Shown here: positions 17,090 through 28,298 of the stretch, piece after piece
Layout: each line of letters begins with the position of its first letter
How positions within the stretch are numbered: the first letter of the stretch is position 1
Assembly (NCBI GenBank): GCA_001871475.1
Contig: MNVE01000009.1
Span: 13,114-77,113 of the forward strand
Length of the DNA stretch: 64,000 bases
Origin: Candidatus Micrarchaeota archaeon CG1_02_47_40
Lineage (GTDB): Archaea; Micrarchaeota; Micrarchaeia; Anstonellales; CG1-02-47-40
Direction: 5' to 3'
Position numbers and translations under genes: made by a program
The notes under the pieces: model-generated
What the model saw: the letters and a program-made list of their open reading frames with translations, nothing else
Told to the model about the DNA's origin: nothing
The model's database searches: none

Positions 17090-17851
17090 ATGATTGTAAT
17101 AAAAATAGGCGGAAGCGCCATCACGGATAAGGGGGGTTTTGAAAAGGCAAGAAAGGCAAGGATAGCGGAGATTGCGAAAGTAATAGCAGGGGCAGCAGAA
17201 AAGGGAAACGAGCCGCTAATTCTTGTGCATGGGGCGGGCTCTTTCGGGCACCCCCAGGTGATTAAATATAAGATAGCTGATGGAGTGCGTACTAAGAAGC
17301 AGGAGATTGGATTTGCGAAAACACATGCGAGCGTGCTGAAGCTTTCTTATTTGCTCATGAGGGAATTTGAAAAGAATGGGATGAAAGTTTGTTTATTTTC
17401 ACCGATTCATTTCATCCTGCAGGAGAAAGGAAAAATAAAAGAGTTTGACACGCTCTCTATTATGCGGGCGCTTGAAAAGAAAATTACTCCTCTTCTGCAC
17501 GGGGATGTGGTGTTTGATACCGTGCTTGGAGGGAGCGTGTGCTCTGGCGATAAGGTTGTTTCCCATTTGGGAAGGAAGGCAAAGAGAGTGATTTTCATTA
17601 CTGAAGTGAATGGTATATTGGATGGTAAGGGAAAAACCATTCGGAAGATTGGCAGGGAAGATTTGGAAAAGTTAAAAGGAGTTATAGGAAAGGCAAGAGG
17701 GCATGACGTTACTGGGGGCATGAAGGAAAAATTGCGGGAGATTATGAAAATCGGAAAACCGACATTTATTGTGGGGGCGGGAAATCTGAAGGGAATTGAA
17801 AACCTTATTTTAGGGAAAAAAGAAGAGAAGTGCACCAAAATTGTTTCCTAA
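17090..17851 (+). CDS. ipk: isopentenyl phosphate kinase (amino-acid-kinase fold)
   Basis: MIVIKIGGSAITDKG N-terminus and LILVHGAGSFGH motif. The start is set at the internal Met. Confidence 0.7.
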   Translation: MIVIKIGGSAITDKGGFEKARKARIAEIAKVIAGAAEKGNEPLILVHGAGSFGHPQVIKYKIADGVRTKKQEIGFAKTHASVLKLSYLLMREFEKNGMKVCLFSPIHFILQEKGKIKEFDTLSIMRALEKKITPLLHGDVVFDTVLGGSVCSGDKVVSHLGRKAKRVIFITEVNGILDGKGKTIRKIGREDLEKLKGVIGKARGHDVTGGMKEKLREIMKIGKPTFIVGAGNLKGIENLILGKKEEKCTKIVS

Positions 17852-19182
17852 GTGCCGTGCTCCCAAGCCGTTGAGTATTCTATTTGCTCTTTTGTCGGCT
17901 TTGGGAGAATTATTCCCTGCGAGAAGAGCGCCAATCTTGCAACCTCATCATCTATTCCGCAAGGCACGCTTATCACGCCTGCTTTCAGCTTCCCTTTATT
18001 CTTCACTAAGTATTCTGCCGAAAGCGCCTGCACTGCAAAGGAGCCATCCATTATTTCTATCGGATGCCCCTGCCCGGAAGGGCGCGCCAGATTCACCAAT
18101 CTTCCCTCTGAAAGGAGGTAAATGCATTTTCCATTTTTGAGAGTGAAGCACTCCAGATTCTCCTTGAGCACTTCTTTTCTTGCGCCCTTTTTTGTAATCC
18201 CCTCTATATCTATTTCGTTGTTGAAATGCCCCGCGTTGCAAACTATCGCGCCGTTTTTCATCTTTTCAATGTGTGAAACGTCTATCGCATTCTTGTTGCC
18301 TGTTGCGGTTATGAAAATGTCCCCTAATGAAGCCGCCTCATCAATTCCCATCACCCTAAAGCCGTCGTAGAGCGCTTCCAGCGCGCGGTGGCAGCCGGAT
18401 TCGCGCTTCTGTTGCGCGGAGGCGGGTTTGCATGCCCCGTCCTCCGTCCCGATTCCGCTTTCTCCAAGCCTGCTTCCTATCTCGCAAACTATTACGCTTG
18501 CGCCCATTCCCCGCAAACGTGAGGCAATTCCCCTTCCGCACCAGCCGTATCCGAGCACAACTGCGGTTTTTCCCGCAATCAGCTTGTTTGTTATTCTCAT
18601 TATCGCATCCAATGTGCTCTGCCCTGTGCCATATCTATTATCAAATAGATGTTTTGAGTATGCGTCATTCACGCTCATTACTGGAAATTTCAGCTTGCCT
18701 GCACTCTGCATCGCTTTCAGCCTTATCACCCCGGTGGTGGTTTCCTCGCACGCGCCTATTATTTGCGGGAGGAGTTCTTGCCGCTTGCCATGCAATAGGT
18801 TAATCAAATCGCATCCGTCATCTATCACTATTTGGGGCTTCTGCTCCAGCACTGCATTCAGACATCCATAATATTCTTCCTTTGACTGCCCGCTCCATGC
18901 AAATATTTCCATCTTCTTTGAGAGGGCGGCTGCAACAGAATCATCCGTTGTAAGCGGGTTGCAGGAAGAGGCGGCAATTTCTGCCCCGCCGGCTTGCAGA
19001 GTCTCAAGCAGTATGCCTGTTTTCTTCTCAAGATGCAATGCAACGGAGATGCGCACTCCTTTCAGGGGTTTTTCCTTCTCAAATCTTTCCCTTATTCCTG
19101 AAAGTATGGGCATGTTTTCCCTTGCCCAGGAAAGCTCTTTTTCTCCGGCAGCTGAAAGTGATATGTTTTTTACTTTGCTCAT
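17848..19182 (-). CDS. ahcY: S-adenosyl-L-homocysteine hydrolase, with an approximately 27-aa in-frame insertion in the NAD-binding domain
   Basis: Conserved SAHH blocks (NLLHGKRQ, GYGWCGRG). The usual EIDPI..ALQAAMEGY stretch is replaced by EIGSRLGESGIGTEDGACKPASAQQKRESGC-HRALEALYDGF. Confidence 0.85.
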   Translation of the reverse strand: MSKVKNISLSAAGEKELSWARENMPILSGIRERFEKEKPLKGVRISVALHLEKKTGILLETLQAGGAEIAASSCNPLTTDDSVAAALSKKMEIFAWSGQSKEEYYGCLNAVLEQKPQIVIDDGCDLINLLHGKRQELLPQIIGACEETTTGVIRLKAMQSAGKLKFPVMSVNDAYSKHLFDNRYGTGQSTLDAIMRITNKLIAGKTAVVLGYGWCGRGIASRLRGMGASVIVCEIGSRLGESGIGTEDGACKPASAQQKRESGCHRALEALYDGFRVMGIDEAASLGDIFITATGNKNAIDVSHIEKMKNGAIVCNAGHFNNEIDIEGITKKGARKEVLKENLECFTLKNGKCIYLLSEGRLVNLARPSGQGHPIEIMDGSFAVQALSAEYLVKNKGKLKAGVISVPCGIDDEVARLALFSQGIILPKPTKEQIEYSTAWEHGT

Positions 19183-19222
19183 GGAAATTGTTTGGAGGAA
19201 GAGATTTAAGAGGATATTGGAA

Positions 19223-20158
19223 ATGGCAAAAACACCTTCTTTGTTTGCAATCGGAACGCCAGTAATTGATTACTTTGCGAAAGTGCAAAGTGGAGAGTTT
19301 GGCGCGCTTGGGCTTAAGAGGGGTTCTACGAATCATTTTTTGGAAGGAGAAAAAATAGGGGAAATGCAGAAAAAATTGAAAATAATCGCAAAGGTGCCTG
19401 GGGACAATGCGCGGAATGCCTGCGAGGGTTTTTCCTCACTTGGGGGAAAGACAGAATATTTCGGGGCGGTCGGAAATGATGAAGATGGAAAGTTTTTTCT
19501 TGATGGGCTGGAGAGGGCAAAGATTGGCTCGCTTGTTGGAAGAATCAGCAAGCATTCAACTGGAAGGATAATCGCCCTAATTGATGAGGGATTTGAGAGA
19601 ACGTTTGCCGCTTACTTGGGGGCTGGGCTTGAGCTTGAAGGGAAGGAAATAGGGAGAATTGGCTCTGCCGATTTCTTTTACACCACTTCTATTACTACAA
19701 GCGGAAAAAATAAAACTGCGGAAACTGCAAAGAAGGCGCTGAAAAATGCGAAAGAAAGAGGAGTGAGAATCGCCTATTCCATTGAAAGCCCGAAAATGGC
19801 TGCGGAGGAAAAGGAAAGGATTTGGGAAGAAGTGAACGAGTTTGCAGATATTCTATTTGCGAATGAAGAGGAATTGAAAGCGCTTGGAAGGAATATGGAG
19901 GAGATAACGAGCCGCGTAAAAATTTTCTGCCTGAAGAGAGGAGCGAATGGAAGTGAAATATATTCAGAAGGGAAGGTTGTGAGAATCCCTGCACAAGAGG
20001 TTGAGAGCGTTATAGACACTACCGGGGCAGGGGATTGGTATGCCGGCGGGTTTCTTTTTGGGATTGGCAGCGGGAAGAATGCAAAGGAAAGTGGGGATAT
20101 CGCCTCAAAATTAGCTTCAAGGATAATGGGAAGGTTGGGGGCGAGTTTGAAATATTAG
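19223..20158 (+). CDS. PfkB-family carbohydrate/nucleoside kinase (possible adenosine kinase)
   Basis: DTTGAGD motif. The internal Met start avoids overlap with ahcY. Divergent from ahcY. Confidence 0.65.
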   Translation: MAKTPSLFAIGTPVIDYFAKVQSGEFGALGLKRGSTNHFLEGEKIGEMQKKLKIIAKVPGDNARNACEGFSSLGGKTEYFGAVGNDEDGKFFLDGLERAKIGSLVGRISKHSTGRIIALIDEGFERTFAAYLGAGLELEGKEIGRIGSADFFYTTSITTSGKNKTAETAKKALKNAKERGVRIAYSIESPKMAAEEKERIWEEVNEFADILFANEEELKALGRNMEEITSRVKIFCLKRGANGSEIYSEGKVVRIPAQEVESVIDTTGAGDWYAGGFLFGIGSGKNAKESGDIASKLASRIMGRLGASLKY

Positions 20159-20187: not shown

Positions 20188-20207
20188 ATATCACTAAAAA
20201 GTGATAT
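20188..20207. promoter_or_regulatory. palindrome ATATCAC-N6-GTGATAT (and near-palindrome TATCTCTAATTATAGATA at 20166-20190) upstream of TA-like module 3
   Basis: Read directly from the sequence. Lies immediately upstream of the likely ATG at 20210. Confidence 0.35.
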
Positions 20208-20209
20208 AT

Positions 20210-20875
20210 ATGAAACCGACAAGCAGAGAAACCTACAGAATTATTCGCGCAATGCTGCGGATGAAAAGATTTACCCAATATGAGATAAGCAAAAAGGAAA
20301 AAATTACTTTCAGCCTCGTAAACCGCACGGTCAATTGGTTTGTTCAGCATGGATATGCTGCAAAACGGGAAGGGGAATATGAAATAACTGCGCCTGCTGC
20401 AATATTCGGGCTTTTCCCCCTCTACCGGAGCCTCAAGCCATACGCTGTTTTTGATGTGAATGTGAAAAGGGAGCGGGCTTTGGGGTTGGTAAAGAAAAGG
20501 GGGGCGCTGTGCCTGACCAGCGCGCTCTCATATCACGGCGACTATTATCGCGACCCGGCAGTTCATGCTTATCTTGATGATGAAAAAATTATTGAAGAAT
20601 TAAAACGAATGCCAAAGGGTTACTGCCGCATTGAACTTTACAGGGAAGATTTGAATAAGGATGATTTTGAGCAGACGAAGTCTGCGAAATACGTGTCCGA
20701 TGGAGGAAACCGGCAAAGGTTTCCGACAGACTTGTCCGAAGGACAAGCAGAAGGACACGGTATTGAGAAAGCAGGTAAGTATATCGTAACGAACAAAATT
20801 AGAACGATAATTGATTTGTTTTGCGCCAACAAGGCGTATGCGGCTGAAGGATTGATTAAAACGGAGTGGGCTTGA
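20210..20875 (+). CDS. AbiEi-like wHTH regulator (module 3); C-terminal region overlaps a hairpin repeat element
   Basis: N-terminal wHTH and a SALSYHGDYY AbiEi-type motif. Nucleotides 20669-20700 and the palindromes at 20704-20747 match the repeat family seen at 61741-61773. Confidence 0.4.
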   Translation: MKPTSRETYRIIRAMLRMKRFTQYEISKKEKITFSLVNRTVNWFVQHGYAAKREGEYEITAPAAIFGLFPLYRSLKPYAVFDVNVKRERALGLVKKRGALCLTSALSYHGDYYRDPAVHAYLDDEKIIEELKRMPKGYCRIELYREDLNKDDFEQTKSAKYVSDGGNRQRFPTDLSEGQAEGHGIEKAGKYIVTNKIRTIIDLFCANKAYAAEGLIKTEWA

Positions 20876-21610
20876 ATGAAAGAGCTTTACGCAAAGGAGA
20901 TTACCGATTCTAGCCTGAAAGAATTGGAGGAAATGGCGCGCTGGTACAATGAAAAAATCGGGAATTATCCGATTATTGTCGGAGGCTGGGCGGTTTATTT
21001 TTACATCGGCGGGCTTGGCTCAAAGGATATTGATGTCGTGTTCCTTGGCGACAGGGCGAAGGATGCGACTTTGGCGGCGTATTTCCATTCCCATGGATAT
21101 GCTGAAAAGCGCAGGGATTTTTTTGATAAGGAATACGTGAAAAAAGTGAAGGCAGGAGATAGGGAAATTGAGATAATAATAGACGCGGTTTCTGCAAAGA
21201 GAACAATTCTTTTTGACGGAAAAGACGCAAGAATCCCCTGGAGCCTGGCTGCAAAGCATAATGTTGAACGGAAAATAGGCTCGGCGAGTGTTTGTTTGCC
21301 GACTAAAGAACTGCTCCTGACATACAAACTTGGCGCGGTCTTGGGAAGAAGCATTCTTCTAAAAACAAGCCCTGAATTTGATTATTACCGCTCAAAGCTT
21401 TGGAAGGATGTTTATGATGCTGCCAGCTTGGCGGGCTTGAAGATTGAGCAGAAGACTGTTTGGGGGTTTCTTGGGCAGACCGGGCTGAAAAAATACGCTA
21501 AAGAAATAATGCAGATTATAGAGGCAAACTTTGATGAAGAGGCGAAATCGCTTGCGGGAGAGGAAGGTTTTCTGAAGATTAGAGGGATGCTTGGGGAAGA
21601 TTGGAGGTAA
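20876..21610 (+). CDS. nucleotidyltransferase-fold protein (non-DUF1814 type), putative toxin partner
   Basis: GGWAVYFYIGGLGSKDIDVVF fits the G[GS]x(n)DhD minimal NTase motif. The gene starts 1 bp after the upstream stop. Confidence 0.45.
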   Translation: MKELYAKEITDSSLKELEEMARWYNEKIGNYPIIVGGWAVYFYIGGLGSKDIDVVFLGDRAKDATLAAYFHSHGYAEKRRDFFDKEYVKKVKAGDREIEIIIDAVSAKRTILFDGKDARIPWSLAAKHNVERKIGSASVCLPTKELLLTYKLGAVLGRSILLKTSPEFDYYRSKLWKDVYDAASLAGLKIEQKTVWGFLGQTGLKKYAKEIMQIIEANFDEEAKSLAGEEGFLKIRGMLGEDWR

Positions 21611-21628: not shown

Positions 21629-23857
21629 TCACTGCTTTCCAGCCAGCACGTATTTTATCAGCTGTTCGCCTGAAGAGGAGAAGCGTATCGTGCTTATCGG
21701 AGTTTCGTAGCTCTCTATCGTTTTTGCGCTGTCAGCAATTGCAGCCGCAAACTCAACCGGTGCGCTGTAATTAAGGAGACTTGAGAGTATGATGTTTGTC
21801 ACCTCTCCTCTTCCGGTTGAGGTGTAGGAGATGAAATTAAGGTTTGTGTTCGGATTTGCCATTAAGTAGTCTGCTGTTGAGCCTGCACTGCCGCAGCTTC
21901 CGGGAATGAAGAGGATGTTTCCGGTGCTGTTTGAAAAGATGTTTGCAGGGAAGTTGTCATTCAGAGAATAAGAATGCCCTCTGAAGGTGAAGACGAGGTT
22001 TTGGTATTCGGATAACTTCTCTTTTATGAAGGATTGATTTTCCTGTTCATTTTCACCCATGTAGATAATTATTCTTCTGCCTCCCTTTTCATAGATGAAT
22101 TCGTTTTCAGAAGCCTTCTTCGGCGCTCCGTATTCTTTTTTGAACCGGTCTTTGGTCAGGCTCCAATGATCGTCTCTTTGCATGTCCTCCCTGTCAAATA
22201 CCTGCACTGCGGTTATGAAGCCGTCAGAATTGAGGTAACTGTTTGGGTTGAATTTGGTTTGTTTTTGGAGGTTTGCAATTTCTTGCTTTTGGGAGTTTGA
22301 AAGGAGGGTTGTTTCTGGATTGAGCAGATAAAGGGAGTATTCAAGGGCTCTCTGGATTTGTTTTTCCGACTCTGGAATTGCGGTCAGCCTTTCGGTTATG
22401 ATGCCCTGGAGCTTCTCCTTGTTTAGGACTTCCGACTTAATTGCGCTGTTTATTCCGTTTGCAAGAAGGGAGTAGTATTGCGCGTCAAAAACGGTGTTTG
22501 AGATTGGGGTTATAAGCGCCTTTGCCGCGCTGTTTATTTCTTCTTTTTTTAAGAGGGAGTTTCCCCTCCCGAACAATCTGTCGTAGTTTATTGCACGGAA
22601 AAGGAAGTTTCTGCCCAGTTCGGAGTCAAAGGAAACTCCTGCTATTTCCTTTAGGTATTCCTCAACTGTTTTTCCTTTCAGGTCTTTTTTTAATCTGTCA
22701 AAGAGATGGTCGTTTGTAGAGGTGTAGAAATATTCCGGTTTTGAGCAGAGGAAGGAGAATACTTGAACTGTGGTTAGAGAGGAGAGATATTTCATTCTTT
22801 CAGGCGTGTTGTCATGCAAATCGTCTAACGGTCTTCCGAGTTCTATTGCGAACATTGTGGAAAGGTGAAAGAGAAGTTGAGTTATTGTTATGTCATTTCT
22901 TGTGTATTTTAGGAATGCATTGTTTTCATCTGGGTTTGAAAGAAGGGAGGAGAAGGAGCGGAATGCTCTCCAAGTGGCATCTCCTTGGGTGTTTGAGATT
23001 ATTGCAGTAAAGATGGGGTTCCAGTATCTGTCTATCCAGCTTTCATTGAAGTTTGGGTTTGAGAGAAGGAAGGAGAAGGAGCTGAATTCTTCCCAGGTGG
23101 CGTCTCCTTTGGTGTTTGAGATTATTGCGTTTACTGTTTGGATGAGGGTGTTGATAAGGTAAACCAGACTTTGCGGATTTATCCAATCTTCTTGGAAGTT
23201 TGGGTTTGAAAGAAGGAAGGAGAAGGAGCTGAATGCGTATCTGGTGGCGTCTCCTTGGGTGTTTGAGGTTATTGCGTTTGTCGTTTGGATGAGATTGTCA
23301 ATAAGATATTGTTCGCTTTGCGGGTTTATCCAGTCTTCTGTGAAGTTTGGGTTTGAAAGAAGGGAGGAGAAGGAGCGGAATACTCTCCAAGTGGCATCTC
23401 CTTGGGTGTTTGAGATTATTGCGTTTACTGTTTGGATGAGGGTGTTGATAAGGTAAACCAGACTTTGCGGAGTTATCCAATCTTCTTGGAAGTTTGGGTT
23501 TGAAAGAAGGAAGGAGAAGTAGCTGAATGCGTAATAGGTGGCGTCTCCTTGGATGTTTTTTGCTATGTAAAGAGCTGTTTCAAAGGCTTTTTCATTGAAG
23601 TTTGGGTTTGAAAGAAGGGAGGAGAAGGAGCGGAATGCTCTCCAAGTGGCATCTCCTTGGGTGTTTTTTAGTATATGCGCGACCGCAGCATAAACGATTG
23701 TGTTTTCCTGCATCTTTTTCTTTATATCTGGCGGGATTTCGCTTTCTCTCTGTTTTATTATGTCATTCATCCAGGGTTCTATTATCGGAGTTGGGATGGT
23801 TTGGGATAAGCCGCTTGGCTTCTCTGTTTCTTGAAAGCGTATTTGGAAAATCAGCAT
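21629..23857 (-). CDS. large repeat protein: about seven ~45-aa tandem repeats N-terminal, C-terminal region with possible caspase/CHAT-like His...Cys dyad
   Basis: Repeat unit NTQGDATWRAFRSFSSLLSNPNF(N/Q)EDWI.PQS..YLI..LIQT.NAI.S. The C-terminal part reads RRIIIYMG...FTFRGHSYS...ILFIPGSCGSAGS. Confidence 0.5.
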   Translation of the reverse strand: MLIFQIRFQETEKPSGLSQTIPTPIIEPWMNDIIKQRESEIPPDIKKKMQENTIVYAAVAHILKNTQGDATWRAFRSFSSLLSNPNFNEKAFETALYIAKNIQGDATYYAFSYFSFLLSNPNFQEDWITPQSLVYLINTLIQTVNAIISNTQGDATWRVFRSFSSLLSNPNFTEDWINPQSEQYLIDNLIQTTNAITSNTQGDATRYAFSSFSFLLSNPNFQEDWINPQSLVYLINTLIQTVNAIISNTKGDATWEEFSSFSFLLSNPNFNESWIDRYWNPIFTAIISNTQGDATWRAFRSFSSLLSNPDENNAFLKYTRNDITITQLLFHLSTMFAIELGRPLDDLHDNTPERMKYLSSLTTVQVFSFLCSKPEYFYTSTNDHLFDRLKKDLKGKTVEEYLKEIAGVSFDSELGRNFLFRAINYDRLFGRGNSLLKKEEINSAAKALITPISNTVFDAQYYSLLANGINSAIKSEVLNKEKLQGIITERLTAIPESEKQIQRALEYSLYLLNPETTLLSNSQKQEIANLQKQTKFNPNSYLNSDGFITAVQVFDREDMQRDDHWSLTKDRFKKEYGAPKKASENEFIYEKGGRRIIIYMGENEQENQSFIKEKLSEYQNLVFTFRGHSYSLNDNFPANIFSNSTGNILFIPGSCGSAGSTADYLMANPNTNLNFISYTSTGRGEVTNIILSSLLNYSAPVEFAAAIADSAKTIESYETPISTIRFSSSGEQLIKYVLAGKQ
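22870..23740. repeat. approximately 135-bp tandem coding repeats (about 7 copies) inside the repeat-protein gene
   Basis: Recurring DNA blocks such as gaagtttgggtttgaaagaagg...gtggcatctccttgggtgtttgagattattgc visible on the plus strand. Confidence 0.7.
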
Positions 23858-25125
23858 ATTTTTTCCGCCTCGTTCTCTGCCTTCTCAATCACTTTCTCCT
23901 CGTCAAAGGAGAGTATTTTTCTCTCCTGCATTATGAGTTTTCCGTCAATTATTACGTCCATTACATTTCCCGCGTGCGCGGAATAAACTATATTTGAGAT
24001 TAAGTTGTGCGCAGGCTGTAAATTCACGGCTTTCGCGTCCAGCAGAATCAAATCTGCTAATTTTCCAGGTGTTATTTCCCCTGCATTAATTCCGAGGGCT
24101 TTAGCCCCTCCTTTTGTTGCAAATGCGAATGCCTCCTGCGCCTTAATCACTTCTGCGTCCCATCTTGCGTGCTTTTGCAGTAAAGAACAGGATTTCATTT
24201 CCTCAAACATGGAAAGGGAATTGTTGCTTGCGGCTCCGTCAGTGCCTAAGGAGATGGTGCAGCCTGCCCCCATCAATTCAGGAAGAGGAGCAGCGCCCCC
24301 TCCCGCTAATTTCATATTGGAAACAGGGCAGTGTGAAATGGATACGCCCTTCTTCCCAAGCAAAACCGCTTCCTGCGCTGAAATCCAAACACAGTGAGCG
24401 GCTAACACGCGCGGAGAGAGAAAGCCGAGTGAATCAAGGTAATCAACAGGCCTTTTGTTGGTTTTCTGCATTATCTGAAATAGCTCTTCCCTTGTTTCCG
24501 AAAGGTGAAGATGTATTTTGCAGTTGAGTTTATTGGCAATTTGCGCGGAGGATTGCAAAAGCTCCGAAGAGCATGTAATTGGAGAATGGGGCGCAATGCA
24601 AGTGCTTATTCTCCCTTCTTCTTTTCCGTTCCATTCCCGCGCAAACCTTTCTCCCTCCTTTAGTTCCTTTTCTCTTTTCCCTTCATCCCCTAAATCAACC
24701 ATCCCATAGCCGAGCATTGAGCGCATCCCTGAATCTGAAACTGCCTTTGCCACAGAATCCATCTGAAAATACATATCTGAAAAGGAAGTTGTGCCGCTTT
24801 TTATCATCTCGCAAATTCCAAGCATCGCGCCTGCATGCACGCTTTGCGCATTCATTTTCTTTTCAACAGGCCATATTCTTTCCTTGAGCCATTTGTGCAA
24901 TTCCATATCGTCCGCATAGCCGCGTAAAAGGCTCATTGCGGTATGGGCATGCGTATTCGCAAAACCCGGAAGAAGGAGCTTGCCTGATGCGTTTATTTTG
25001 TGCTCTGCAGAAGCGTTGATGCCTGGTGACGCCCTTGAAATTGTATTCCCCTCAATGAGCACATCGCATTTTTTCGCCTTTCCTTCGCGCGTTATTGCTG
25101 TTGCGTCTTTTATCAGAATTGACAT
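23851..25125 (-). CDS. mtaD: amidohydrolase, 5-methylthioadenosine/S-adenosylhomocysteine deaminase-like
   Basis: HTHAHTAM metal-binding motif, LGTDGAASNNSL and HCPVSNMKLA motifs typical of the MtaD/guanine deaminase subfamily. Confidence 0.75.
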   Translation of the reverse strand: MSILIKDATAITREGKAKKCDVLIEGNTISRASPGINASAEHKINASGKLLLPGFANTHAHTAMSLLRGYADDMELHKWLKERIWPVEKKMNAQSVHAGAMLGICEMIKSGTTSFSDMYFQMDSVAKAVSDSGMRSMLGYGMVDLGDEGKREKELKEGERFAREWNGKEEGRISTCIAPHSPITCSSELLQSSAQIANKLNCKIHLHLSETREELFQIMQKTNKRPVDYLDSLGFLSPRVLAAHCVWISAQEAVLLGKKGVSISHCPVSNMKLAGGGAAPLPELMGAGCTISLGTDGAASNNSLSMFEEMKSCSLLQKHARWDAEVIKAQEAFAFATKGGAKALGINAGEITPGKLADLILLDAKAVNLQPAHNLISNIVYSAHAGNVMDVIIDGKLIMQERKILSFDEEKVIEKAENEAEKIC

Positions 25126-26902: not shown

Positions 26903-27511
26903 ATGTCAAAGCTGAAAATTACCGAGGAGGTGCTCAAGGCAGTTGAATCTTCGCCATTTGGCATCGCTTCCTTGGAAGTGCTTGGAAGCCTTCAGCTCTG
27001 CTCCTTCCCTACCCTCAAAACCACGATTAGCAGGCTGAACAGGGCAGGCAGGATTATCAGGGTGAAAAGAGGCGTTTATTCCGCAACTCCTGTGCGGGAC
27101 CCTTATGCGCTTGCACAGGCGATTTTTGGCGGTTATGTTGGCTTCTCGGGAGCGCTTTATCTGCATAAGTTGAACACGGAGATGCCCTTCACTATTATCA
27201 TTGTCACGCCGCACCTCTCCAAAACAAGAAGTTTTGGCGAGTATGAGTTTAGGGCAGTCGCATTGGGAGATAGGGCGGTCGGGTTTGAACGGCTTGGAAA
27301 TTGCAATGTTTCAACGAGGGCGAAAACGCTCTTTGACTGCCTTTACCTTCCGCACTATTCCATAGAGGGACAGAAGCTCGTTGAGGCGTTTTCGCAGGCA
27401 AAGCTTGAAAGGAAGGAATGGAAAGAGTTTGAGTATTATGTCAAGAAATTTGCGGGAAAAAAGGCGGCAGTAGATATGTTTGAGGTAAAAAAGCTTATTC
27501 AAAGGAGTTGA
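26903..27511 (+). CDS. AbiEi-like antitoxin/regulator (TA module 2)
   Basis: wHTH N-terminus (LKTTISRLNRAGRIIRVKRGVY) and an SGALYLHKL AbiEi-type motif. Confidence 0.55.
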   Translation: MSKLKITEEVLKAVESSPFGIASLEVLGSLQLCSFPTLKTTISRLNRAGRIIRVKRGVYSATPVRDPYALAQAIFGGYVGFSGALYLHKLNTEMPFTIIIVTPHLSKTRSFGEYEFRAVALGDRAVGFERLGNCNVSTRAKTLFDCLYLPHYSIEGQKLVEAFSQAKLERKEWKEFEYYVKKFAGKKAAVDMFEVKKLIQRS

Positions 27512-27515
27512 TAAA

Positions 27516-28298
27516 ATGGAAATCAATCTTGAGGTGTGCAGGACTATTGCGGTGCAGTATGGGCTGCCCCTGCAGTTTGTCGCAAAGGAGTTCTACGTGT
27601 TTGACGTGCTCGGGCAGATTGCTGAACTGACTGCGGGAAAGAAGGAGCTTGTTTTCAAGGGAGGAACCGCGCTCAACAAGATTTACCTTGGGAAAATGCA
27701 GCGCTTTTCAGAGGATTTGGATTTTGATTTGAGCGCGGAGAGGGAGATTGGGCTGACGGAGTATTGCAGGAAGCTTGCAAAGGGGATTGAAGGCTACAAA
27801 ATAGGTGAATTTCGAAAAGTGCGCGGCACGCTGCAGCTTTACTGCGGCTTTGAAAGCCTGCTTGGCGGAACTGATCATGTTAGGATTGACATTGCCGCAA
27901 AAAAAATAATCACGCAAAACCCTACCGCGCTCGGAACTGCCTCCTCTTCGTATGCAGGGCGCTCCGTCGCAGGAATTAATGTGTATTCCCTTGAGGATTT
28001 GTGCGCAAGGAAGCTTTGCGCCCTCTGCGTTAGGGGGGAGGGAAAGGATTTTTACGACGTGCATAATGCCCTGCCTTTATGCGGCAGGATGAAGGGGGCG
28101 ATTGAAAAAATGCTCTTAAGCGAAGGAAGCGGGCAAACTGCGGAGGAATTTTTGGAGAAGGCAACTGCAACGGTAAAAAAGGCGGATGCAAAAAAACTTC
28201 GCAATCTTGCAAACCCGTTCATACCTGCAGGCTGCCGTCCAAAGGATTGGCTGGAGCTGAAAAACGACCTTGCAATGAAACTGGAAATGCTGGGGTGA
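27516..28298 (+). CDS. AbiEii-like nucleotidyltransferase toxin (DUF1814)
   Basis: FKGGTALNKIYLGKMQRFSEDLDFD signature. Confidence 0.7.
   Translation: MEINLEVCRTIAVQYGLPLQFVAKEFYVFDVLGQIAELTAGKKELVFKGGTALNKIYLGKMQRFSEDLDFDLSAEREIGLTEYCRKLAKGIEGYKIGEFRKVRGTLQLYCGFESLLGGTDHVRIDIAAKKIITQNPTALGTASSSYAGRSVAGINVYSLEDLCARKLCALCVRGEGKDFYDVHNALPLCGRMKGAIEKMLLSEGSGQTAEEFLEKATATVKKADAKKLRNLANPFIPAGCRPKDWLELKNDLAMKLEMLG

What the first reader, a model, noticed from the sequence alone, without database searches (positions are those of the whole stretch)
21629..23857. 742-aa protein with about seven 45-aa tandem repeats and a possible caspase/CHAT-like C-terminal domain
The N-terminal half consists of near-identical helical repeats (NTQGDATWRAFRSFSSLLSNPNF..). 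The C-terminal region has a beta-strand/His (FTFRGHSYS) followed about 25 aa later by hydrophobic strand/Cys (ILFIPGSCGSAGS), the arrangement of caspase-fold peptidases. It lies next to a TA-like pair and overlaps the mtaD 3' end on the same strand. It could be a novel repeat-scaffolded protease, or simply a divergent structural protein.
Basis: inference. Interest (0 to 1): 0.55.

Follow-up and report, generated by a model that had tools for sequence, protein, structure and literature searches.

The report
Orphan caspase-fold protease of DPANN archaea
This gene encodes a member of a small, unannotated protein family found almost only in tiny symbiotic (DPANN) archaea, in which a variable array of helical repeats and a conserved helical domain precede a caspase/separase-like domain with a conserved His-Cys pair, so it is most likely a new kind of regulated cysteine protease.

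Summary
The 742-aa ORF (21629-23857, minus strand) is real and conserved. The repeat description needs correcting: there are six units (36/49/49/49/41/29 aa, 52-86% identical), not about seven of 45 aa. The C-terminal ~410 aa define a sharply bounded family of about 106 clusters among 1.84 billion proteins. Nearly all named members come from Micrarchaeota or Iainarchaeota, and the family has no Pfam, NCBIfam, PADLOC or PDB sequence match.

The parts
21629..23857 (-). Complete CDS, 742 aa plus stop codon (stop at 21629-21631).
   Evidence: ORF list. Translation checked. Homologues at E 1e-68 to 1e-263.
23675..23857 (-). N-terminal head, aa 1-61 (MLIFQIRFQ...). The M[FLI][IV][FL]Q start is shared with about 10 of 67 full-length family members, which supports this start codon. 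The ATG overlaps the upstream mtaD-like stop by 7 nt.
22916..23674 (-). Array of six tandem repeats, aa 62-314, with units of 36/49/49/49/41/29 aa and core motif NTQGDATWRAF(R/S)SFS(S/F)LLSNPNF. It is the variable, presumably helical module for binding a partner or substrate.
   Evidence: TRF: 147-nt period, score 742. Unit dissection and identities. The array is an N-gap in the second assembly, L004. Other family members carry different numbers and types of repeats here.
22253..22855 (-). Conserved all-helical domain, aa 335-535 (about 11 helices). Its invariant polar residues include G341, D345, H348, R354, S380, N382, R388, N417, R421, Y425, R427, Y461 and N467. Motifs: IELGRPLDDLH, PEYFYTS(S/T)NHxLFDRLK, RNFLFRAINYDR, YxxLLAN.
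   Evidence: Alignment A1, family-wide counts, AF2 model secondary structure. No match to any known family or fold was obtained for this domain.
21632..22237 (-). C-terminal alpha/beta domain, aa 541-742, predicted caspase/hemoglobinase-like (clan CD-like) fold. The element order is b1-a1-(hairpin)b2-a2-b3-His-a3-b4-Cys-a4-b5-a5-b6.
21974..21976 (-). Codon of His628, the putative catalytic His in the motif TFRGHSYSL, immediately after strand b3.
   Evidence: Translation. Invariant in 22 homologues and kept in 96 of 106 family-wide. Five of the eight Asp variants have His at position 631.
21893..21895 (-). Codon of Cys655, the putative catalytic nucleophile in the motif LFIPGSCGSAGS, after strand b4.
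   Evidence: Translation. Invariant in 22 homologues and kept in 103 of 106 family-wide.

Best explanation
The gene encodes a stand-alone protein with four parts, in most members cytoplasmic, from a family restricted to Micrarchaeota and Iainarchaeota (DPANN archaea). The parts are a short conserved head, a rapidly evolving array of (inferred) helical repeats, a strongly conserved ~200-aa all-helical domain, and a ~200-aa C-terminal alpha/beta domain of the caspase/hemoglobinase type.

The proposed mechanism is inferred, not shown. The C-terminal domain would be a clan CD-like cysteine endopeptidase. Cys655, at the end of strand b4, would be the nucleophile, and His628, at the end of strand b3, the general base. 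The repeat array and the conserved helical domain would recruit and position a protein substrate or regulator and probably gate access to the active site, as the helical-repeat regions do in separase and TPR-CHAT proteases.

Shown here: the ORF and its repeats, the family and its boundaries, conservation of the dyad, and a predicted fold whose best matches are clan CD peptidases.

Inferred: catalysis, the role of the repeats and of the helical domain, and regulation.

Unknown: the substrate and the P1 specificity.
For: - Family. There are 22 homologues at E <= 6e-68. The exhaustive search finds 106 cluster representatives among 1.84e9 proteins, 87 of them below 1e-30. The 20 genome loci are nearly all Micrarchaeota, Iainarchaeum or Bilamarchaeum.
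- Dyad conservation. H628 and C655 are invariant in A1. Family-wide, C655 is kept in 103 of 106 instances, H628 in 96 of 106, R626 in 102 and G653 in 99.
- Displaced His. In 8 members H628 is Asp. Five of these have His at position 631, against 3 of 96 in the H628 background (Fisher p = 3e-5, not corrected for phylogeny). All 8 keep the Cys. This is the pattern of a displaced catalytic residue, not a lost one.
- Structure. The AF2 models have pLDDT 89.2 / pTM 0.88 (aa 330-742) and 89.3 / 0.87 (aa 535-742). His and Cys follow consecutive hydrophobic strands (LVFTF-RGH, ILFIP-GSC), matching the clan CD rule that the dyad lies at the C-terminal ends of b3 and b4 of a sheet flanked by five helices (PMC4357240).
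- Separase-like detail. The His-Cys spacing (27) and the Gly-His context match human separase G2002-H2003...C2029, which is 26 apart (PMC12609080 and PMC9729208).
- Architecture. Helical repeats followed by a C-terminal caspase-like domain parallel separase and TPR-CHAT.
Against: - Foldseek against the PDB found nothing with E <= 0.001; its best hits were Arf-type GTPases, with caspase-6 at E 0.08.
- No sequence method links the family to any clan CD family. This covers Pfam, NCBIfam and PADLOC on the window protein, Pfam on 69 members, a profile search against PDB sequences, hhalign against caspase-3 at probability 0.3%, and a profile search of 5.8e9 proteins that returned only family members.
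- The His is followed by Ser, not the Gly usual in clan CD.
- I could not obtain model coordinates, so the strand order of the sheet and the superposition of H628/C655 on a known dyad were not checked.
- There is no experimental data on activity, and there is no conserved gene neighbour to suggest a substrate.
Confidence: 0.6

Rival explanations
1. The alpha/beta domain is a cysteine-dependent enzyme that is not a peptidase, for example an amidase, acyl- or amidotransferase, transamidase/ligase or small-molecule hydrolase. It would be built on a generic three-layer Rossmann-like fold, and the resemblance to clan CD would be only fold-level convergence.
Confidence: 0.22
2. The protein is a non-catalytic structural or scaffolding protein (a pseudo-enzyme). 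The repeats and helical domain would mediate assembly, for example at the cell envelope or at the contact site with the host archaeon.
For: More than half of the protein is helical or repeat sequence. The repeat arrays vary greatly in number and type between members. A few members have signal-peptide-like N-termini. Two family members, P0098 and P0099, have lost the Cys.
Against: Near-universal retention of Cys655 (103 of 106), His628 or a displaced His, and R626, G653, Y664 and G682 is hard to explain without chemistry at this site. Most members (63 of 67) have no signal-peptide-like N-terminus.
Confidence: 0.08
3. The long ORF is an assembly artefact. The real gene would be the 408-aa C-terminal product (P0001) starting at Met335, and the repeat region would be mis-assembled or non-coding.
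For: A 100%-identical 408-aa gene call exists in another assembly.
Against: In that assembly the repeat array is simply a run of 100 Ns (a scaffold gap) flanked by the first and last repeat, and the flanks are 99.98-100% identical to the window. The truncated call is therefore the artefact. The window ORF reads in frame through six diverged units. Its N-terminus MLIFQI matches the N-termini of homologues. Nearly all full-length homologues have 100-960 aa N-terminal to the conserved core.
Confidence: 0.03

Closest known systems
Separase (MEROPS family C50, clan CD; e.g. human ESPL1, PDB 9HVY/7NJ0; C. elegans SEP-1, 5MZ6; yeast Esp1, 5U1T)
CHAT-domain proteases (Pfam PF12770; TPR-CHAT/Csx29 of type III-E CRISPR 'Craspase'; SAVED-CHAT of CBASS, PDB 8TL0)
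   Different: The window protein has no PF12770 match even at E <= 10, and PF12770 is not among the 25 most frequently matched families when 69 members are scanned. The dyad spacing is 27, against 42 in TPR-CHAT (H585/C627). There is no association with CRISPR, CBASS or any other defence genes, and the neighbourhood is made of variable housekeeping genes. The repeats are not TPRs by Pfam.
Gingipains (C25), clostripain-like C11 peptidases, and caspases/metacaspases/paracaspases (C14)
   Different: Sequence identity is 8-14% and hhalign is not significant. The His-Cys spacing is much shorter than in caspases (42 in caspase-7, H144/C186). There is no evident prodomain, intersubunit linker or Ca2+ site. 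The extra conserved helical domain is specific to this family.

Membership tests
Clan CD cysteine peptidases (caspase/hemoglobinase fold) | Alpha/beta fold built on a central six-stranded sheet (order 2-1-3-4-5-6, with b6 antiparallel) flanked by five helices (PMC4357240). | tested here: inconclusive
Clan CD cysteine peptidases (caspase/hemoglobinase fold) | Catalytic dyad in the order His then Cys, at the C-terminal ends of adjacent strands b3 and b4, each preceded by a block of hydrophobic residues. | tested here: met
   LVFTF-RG-H628 follows strand 621-626 and NILFIP-GS-C655 follows strand 646-651. Both residues are conserved family-wide.
Clan CD cysteine peptidases (caspase/hemoglobinase fold) | A small residue, usually Gly, after the catalytic His (His-Gly) to form the oxyanion hole. 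| tested here: not met
   The family has Gly-His-Ser: position 629 is Ser in 90 of 106 instances and Ala in 6. Gly precedes the His, as it also does in human separase (G2002-H2003-G2004).
Clan CD cysteine peptidases (caspase/hemoglobinase fold) | Cys-dependent endopeptidase activity with strict P1 specificity. | not testable with these tools
   This needs biochemistry.
Separase (C50, Pfam PF03568) | Sequence-profile membership in Peptidase_C50. | tested here: not met
   hmmscan of the window protein at E <= 10 lists no C50 model, and none is among the 25 most frequently matched families in 69 members. The PDB sequence profile search finds no separase.
Separase (C50, Pfam PF03568) | Dyad spacing of about 26 residues with a G-H context (human H2003/C2029). 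| tested here: met
   H628 and C655 are 27 apart, preceded by G627. Separase residue numbers are from PMC12609080 and PMC9729208.
Separase (C50, Pfam PF03568) | A pseudo-protease/substrate-binding domain preceding the catalytic domain, a securin-type inhibitor, and a kleisin substrate. | not tested
   The preceding domain is all-helical in the model, which argues against a pseudo-caspase domain, but no direct comparison was possible. No partner genes are conserved nearby.
CHAT domain (Pfam PF12770) | Sequence-profile membership in PF12770. | tested here: not met
   There is no hit in the window protein at E <= 10, and PF12770 is not among the top families matched by 69 members.
Caspase / metacaspase (C14, Pfam PF00656) | Sequence-profile membership, or significant profile similarity to a caspase. 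| tested here: not met
   No Pfam hit. hhalign of the 98-sequence domain profile against verified human caspase-3 gives probability 0.3%, E 0.21.
P-loop small GTPases (Arf-like; top Foldseek hits) | Walker A GxxxxGK[ST] after strand b1, plus DxxG and NKxD motifs. | tested here: not met
   The only glycine-rich loop, GSCGSAGST, follows the fourth core strand, lacks the Lys and has the wrong spacing (sequence). The Foldseek E-values are themselves non-significant.

The most novel reading that the evidence does not exclude
The family is a genuine archaeal branch of the separase/CHAT lineage of clan CD. It would be a minimal 'helical repeats plus separase-type protease' that cleaves a specific cellular target (for example a chromosome-, division- or host-contact-associated protein) in DPANN archaea. 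The fast-evolving repeat array would set partner specificity. If so, it would give an archaeal reference point for the origin of eukaryotic separase and a compact model for how helical repeats gate a caspase-fold protease.
Probability: 0.12. Interest if true: 0.75.

Novelty: new variant of a known kind. Interest (0 to 1): 0.5.

Why it matters
DPANN archaea have very small genomes with a large share of unannotated genes, and little is known about how they regulate proteins or interact with their hosts. This work assigns a testable biochemical function, a His/Cys caspase-fold peptidase, to a conserved family that public records label only as 'hypothetical protein' and that sits among housekeeping genes.

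It adds a family invisible to sequence methods to the clan CD repertoire in archaea. It also shows again the pairing of a variable helical-repeat array with a caspase-like protease, as in separase and TPR-CHAT. The closest structural match is separase, including the dyad spacing. If that reflects common descent and not convergence, it bears on where the eukaryotic chromosome-segregation protease came from.

In practice, the family provides defined point mutants to test (C655A, H628A), natural variants with a displaced His, and a natural series of repeat-number variants.

Tried and rejected
- **Family libraries.** Pfam, NCBIfam and PADLOC scans of the protein gave only sub-threshold noise: DicB, Beta-lactamase, PDC-S57.
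- **PDB by sequence.** A single-sequence search found nothing, and a family-profile search found only designed helical-repeat proteins at E >= 0.02.
- **Foldseek.** Against the PDB there was nothing at E <= 0.001. The AFDB50 library was not available.
- **Pfam on distant members.** Ten distant and 69 typical members gave no peptidase family. The 'XPC-binding' (best E 2.8e-26) and HP1451_C scores in some members are sums of about 20-residue partial repeat matches, with no stretch significant on its own. I rejected them as evidence of homology to Rad23/STI1 domains.
- **Repeat homology.** hhalign of the window's six repeats against the family-wide ~35-aa repeat gave probability 3%, so common origin of the repeat types is not shown. 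P0003, one of the closest relatives, has yet another repeat type.
- **Caspase-3 comparison.** hhalign of the domain profile against caspase-3 was not significant.
- **Domain profile search.** A profile search of 5.8e9 proteins with the alpha/beta domain alone returned only family members.
- **Gene neighbourhood.** Three look-ups and 20 genome loci showed no conserved partner. The mtaD overlap and the TA-like pair are specific to this genome.
- **Bacterial homologue.** L024, from a 'Pseudomonadota' MAG, holds a 143-aa truncated fragment beside bacterial two-component genes. It is probably a chimeric or misbinned contig.
- **P0001.** The 408-aa call as an alternative gene model was rejected as an N-gap artefact.
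- **HEPN idea.** R342-x5-H348 in GRPLDDLH resembles the HEPN Rx4-6H motif, but I could not test this. The motif lies at the very start of the conserved region, in the lowest-confidence part of the model, so I did not pursue it.
- **Literature.** Searches on DPANN or Micrarchaeota with caspase, CHAT, separase or cysteine protease found no description of this family.
Full report
**1. What is in the sequence**

The ORF at 21629..23857 on the minus strand is real: 742 aa with an ATG start. Its ATG lies inside the last codons of the upstream gene (23851..25125). That gene is a 424-aa Amidohydro_1 protein of the MtaD type (Pfam E 7e-76). The two genes overlap by 7 nt (ATGCTGA), a translational-coupling arrangement.

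Downstream, in convergent orientation, lie two plus-strand genes (20201-20875 and 20876-21610). The first has only weak winged-helix/AbiEi-like similarity, and the second has no family hit. A clear AbiEi/AbiEii pair lies further away, at 26903-28298.

The quoted motifs FTFRGHSYS (His628) and ILFIPGSCGSAGS (Cys655) are present, 27 residues apart.

The repeat description needs correcting. There are six units anchored on GDAT (aa 68, 104, 153, 202, 251, 292), and they are 36, 49, 49, 49, 41 and 29 aa long. The cores are 52-86% identical at protein level and 69-92% at DNA level. TRF reports a 147-nt period, 3.5 copies and score 742. The array spans aa 62-314, about a third of the protein.

**2. 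Is the long ORF an artefact?**

A 100%-identical protein of only 408 aa (P0001) exists in another metagenome assembly. That contig (L004) is the same locus, with the same gene order and 99.98-100% identity over 10.8 kb. In it, however, the repeat array is replaced by exactly 100 Ns between the first and last repeat. The short gene call is therefore the artefact.

The window's start codon is supported by the N-terminal peptide MLIFQI, which recurs at the N-termini of homologues (MLIFQIT, MFIFQIL, MFIFQIS, MFVFQV and others). The exact copy number of the repeats remains unconfirmed by any independent assembly.

**3. The family**

A word-indexed search returned 22 homologues (E 6e-68 to 4e-140, 35-55% identity), and only the C-terminal ~410 aa is conserved. 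An exhaustive HMMER pass over 1.84 billion cluster representatives found just 106 proteins with E <= 1e-3, 87 of them below 1e-30. The family is small and sharply bounded.

A scan of one genome per GTDB species recovered 20 loci. They come from Micrarchaeota, 'Candidatus Iainarchaeum/ainarchaeum', Bilamarchaeum or uncultured archaea. The exception is a truncated 143-aa fragment on a contig binned as Pseudomonadota, which looks chimeric. Public names, where present, are all 'hypothetical protein'.

No Pfam, NCBIfam, PADLOC or PDB sequence match exists for the window protein or for 79 other members scanned. A profile search with the alpha/beta domain alone returned only family members, with nothing between E 1e-45 and 0.01. 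Literature searches found no description of the family.

**4. Architecture**

Family members share four parts:
- **Head.** A short N-terminal head. About 10 of 67 full-length members start M[FLI][IV][FL]Q. About 4 of 67 have a signal-peptide-like start instead, and the rest have neither, so the family is mostly cytoplasmic.
- **Repeat array.** An array that differs widely in unit number (about 2 to more than 15) and even in repeat type. The commonest type is a ~35-aa unit, AFxALxN(D/P)xIAxLFxKxPxxFVEIAKAxG. The window's NTQGDATWRAFRSFSSLLSNPNF units share only an AF...L.NP.(I/F) skeleton with it, and hhalign does not support homology (probability 3%). I treat the array as a fast-evolving variable module.
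- **Helical domain.** A ~200-aa all-helical domain (aa 335-535) that is as conserved as the putative catalytic domain. About half of the 36 invariant columns in the 23-sequence alignment lie here, including D345, H348, R354, N382, R388, N417, R421, R427 and N467.
- **Alpha/beta domain.** A ~200-aa domain (aa 541-742) carrying His628 and Cys655.

**5.

*Conservation.* His628 and Cys655 are invariant in the 22 closest homologues. Over about 106 aligned family instances, Cys655 is kept in 103 and His628 in 96. R626 (102), G653 (99), Y664 (102) and G682 (102) are also nearly universal. Eight members have Asp at position 628. Five of these have His three residues later (FRGDxxHL), against 3 of 96 in the His628 background (Fisher p = 3e-5). 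That figure is not corrected for shared ancestry, so it may reflect one or a few events. All eight retain the Cys. This pattern is what a functionally required His that has shifted position would produce. Two divergent members (P0098, P0099) have lost the Cys and look like pseudo-enzymes.

*Fold.* AlphaFold2 with the 22-sequence alignment gave confident models: aa 330-742 with pLDDT 89.2 and pTM 0.88, and aa 535-742 with pLDDT 89.3 and pTM 0.87. The alpha/beta domain has the element order b1-a1-(hairpin)-b2-a2-b3-a3-b4-a4-b5-a5-b6. His628 comes two residues after b3 (LVFTFR-G-H) and Cys655 comes after b4 (NILFIP-GS-C). This matches the clan CD definition of a His/Cys dyad at the C-terminal ends of b3 and b4 of a six-stranded sheet flanked by five helices (PMC4357240).

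**6. Caveats on the fold assignment**

- Foldseek against the PDB found nothing with E <= 0.001. Its list is headed by Arf-type GTPases, which I reject because no Walker A, DxxG or NKxD motifs exist; caspase-6 appears at E 0.08.
- hhalign of a 98-sequence domain profile against human caspase-3 (sequence verified identical to 7XN4_A) is not significant (probability 0.3%). The alignment does place LFIPGSC on LFIIQAC.
The AFDB library was unavailable.

**7. Which clan CD family is closest**

The best structural matches are separases. The dyad spacing (27) is essentially that of human separase H2003/C2029 (26), and the His is preceded by Gly in both (G627-H628; G2002-H2003) (PMC12609080 and PMC9729208). 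TPR-CHAT has H585/C627, 42 apart, and caspase-7 has H144/C186, also 42 apart. The overall layout, with helical repeats N-terminal to a C-terminal caspase-like domain, also parallels separase and CHAT proteins.

**8. Genomic context**

No neighbouring gene family recurs across 20 loci plus three further look-ups. The gene sits among different housekeeping genes in each genome: ribosomal proteins, ProRS, CDC48, SOD and nucleotide metabolism genes. The only recurring feature is the family itself. Two loci carry tandem paralogues (L020, L021), and one MAG has three copies (L009 plus L021). There is no link to CRISPR, CBASS or other defence genes. The mtaD overlap and the TA-like neighbours are specific to this genome and do not indicate function.

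**9. Most likely mechanism**

This is inferred. The protein would be a regulated cysteine endopeptidase. Cys655 would attack the scissile bond and His628 would act as general base. The loop after b5 (consensus SNTSTGRGQVTN; T681, G682, G684, T687 and N688 conserved) and the loop after b1 (VQVFDKEDT; Q552 and D558 conserved) occupy the positions of the substrate-binding loops L5 and L1 of caspases (PMC4357240). The specificity cannot be read from them.

The strongly conserved, Arg/Asn-rich helical domain probably forms part of the substrate or effector-binding surface, or an autoinhibitory lid. The variable repeat array probably selects the partner. The substrate is unknown.

I put about 0.75 on the caspase-type fold and dyad and about 0.6 on active peptidase function. 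The rivals are a non-peptidase Cys enzyme on a generic alpha/beta fold (about 0.2), a non-catalytic scaffold (about 0.08), and an ORF artefact (about 0.03).

**10. Novelty and interest**

The family is unannotated and invisible to sequence-based classification, and it is confined to a poorly understood archaeal group. Its kind, however, a helical-repeat protein with a C-terminal caspase-fold His/Cys domain, is well known. I rate it a new variant of a known kind, with moderate interest (0.5).

The most novel reading not excluded is that it is a true archaeal relative of the separase/CHAT lineage (probability about 0.12). That would bear on the origin of eukaryotic separase.

Noticed in passing
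L004:5468-5567 (equivalent to window 22986-23611): The only other assembly of this locus (ENA ERZ22277115, coverage about 4.6x) has exactly 100 Ns where the window has 626 nt of repeat array. This produced a truncated 408-aa gene call (P0001) in the public protein collection. Tandem repeats of this kind are probably under-represented or truncated in short-read DPANN MAGs.
   Followed up: yes
Family alignment, positions equivalent to window aa 628 and 631 (codons at 21974-21976 and 21965-21967): Eight family members have Asp in place of the putative catalytic His628. Five of them have His three residues downstream (FRGDxxHL) and all keep Cys655, which looks like a catalytic residue that has moved. 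Two other members (P0098, P0099) have lost the Cys and look like pseudo-enzymes.
   Followed up: partly
window 23840-23857 (aa 1-6) and the N-termini of P0003, P0007, P0015, P0017, P0024, P0026, P0047, P0083, P0088: About 10 of 67 full-length members begin with a conserved hydrophobic pentapeptide, M[FLI][IV][FL]Q. Its role is unknown: it could be a docking strand, a degron, or an autoinhibitory peptide. About four other members have signal-peptide-like N-termini instead (P0008, P0033, P0043, P0087).
   Followed up: partly
L020:3084-7239 and L021:3543-7296: Two Micrarchaeota genomes carry tandem paralogues of the family. One MAG (AlinenSediments_bin-0946) has three copies in total (L009 plus two in L021).
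   Followed up: no
window 22253-22855 (aa 335-535), especially aa 341-348 (GRPLDDLH): The conserved helical domain holds about half of the family's invariant residues, many of them Arg or Asn, and includes an R342-x5-H348 spacing that resembles the HEPN Rx4-6H motif. No fold or family could be assigned, so a second functional site such as a ligand- or nucleic-acid-binding site is possible.
   Followed up: no
P0058, P0024 and four other family members (N-terminal repeat arrays): Pfam XPC-binding (PF09280; best E 2.8e-26) and HP1451_C (best E 9e-16) score above their gathering thresholds in some members, but only by summing many ~20-residue partial matches to the NPxIAKLF part of the repeat, with no single stretch significant. 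This is a likely source of false annotation for these proteins.
   Followed up: yes
window 20201-21610 (+) and 26903-28298 (+): The window holds two two-gene cassettes of the AbiE type within 8 kb. One is clear (AbiEi_4 at E 3.8e-4 plus AbiEii at E 1.8e-23, 26903-28298). The other is divergent (a weak wHTH/AbiEi-like gene followed by a 244-aa protein with a GS..DID nucleotidyltransferase-like motif and no family hit, 20201-21610). Both are also present in L004.
   Followed up: partly
L024:6004-6435: A contig binned as a Pseudomonadota MAG carries a 143-aa fragment of the family that starts mid-domain at the b2 strand, directly beside bacterial histidine-kinase and response-regulator genes. It is probably a chimeric contig or misbinning and not a bacterial homologue.
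   Followed up: partly
window 17848-19182 (-), 19217-20158 (+), 23851-25125 (-): S-adenosylhomocysteine hydrolase, a PfkB-family (adenosine-kinase-like) sugar kinase and the MtaD-like deaminase cluster around the finding. This is a small methyl-cycle and nucleoside-salvage neighbourhood typical of reduced archaeal genomes and appears unrelated to the protease-like gene.
   Followed up: no
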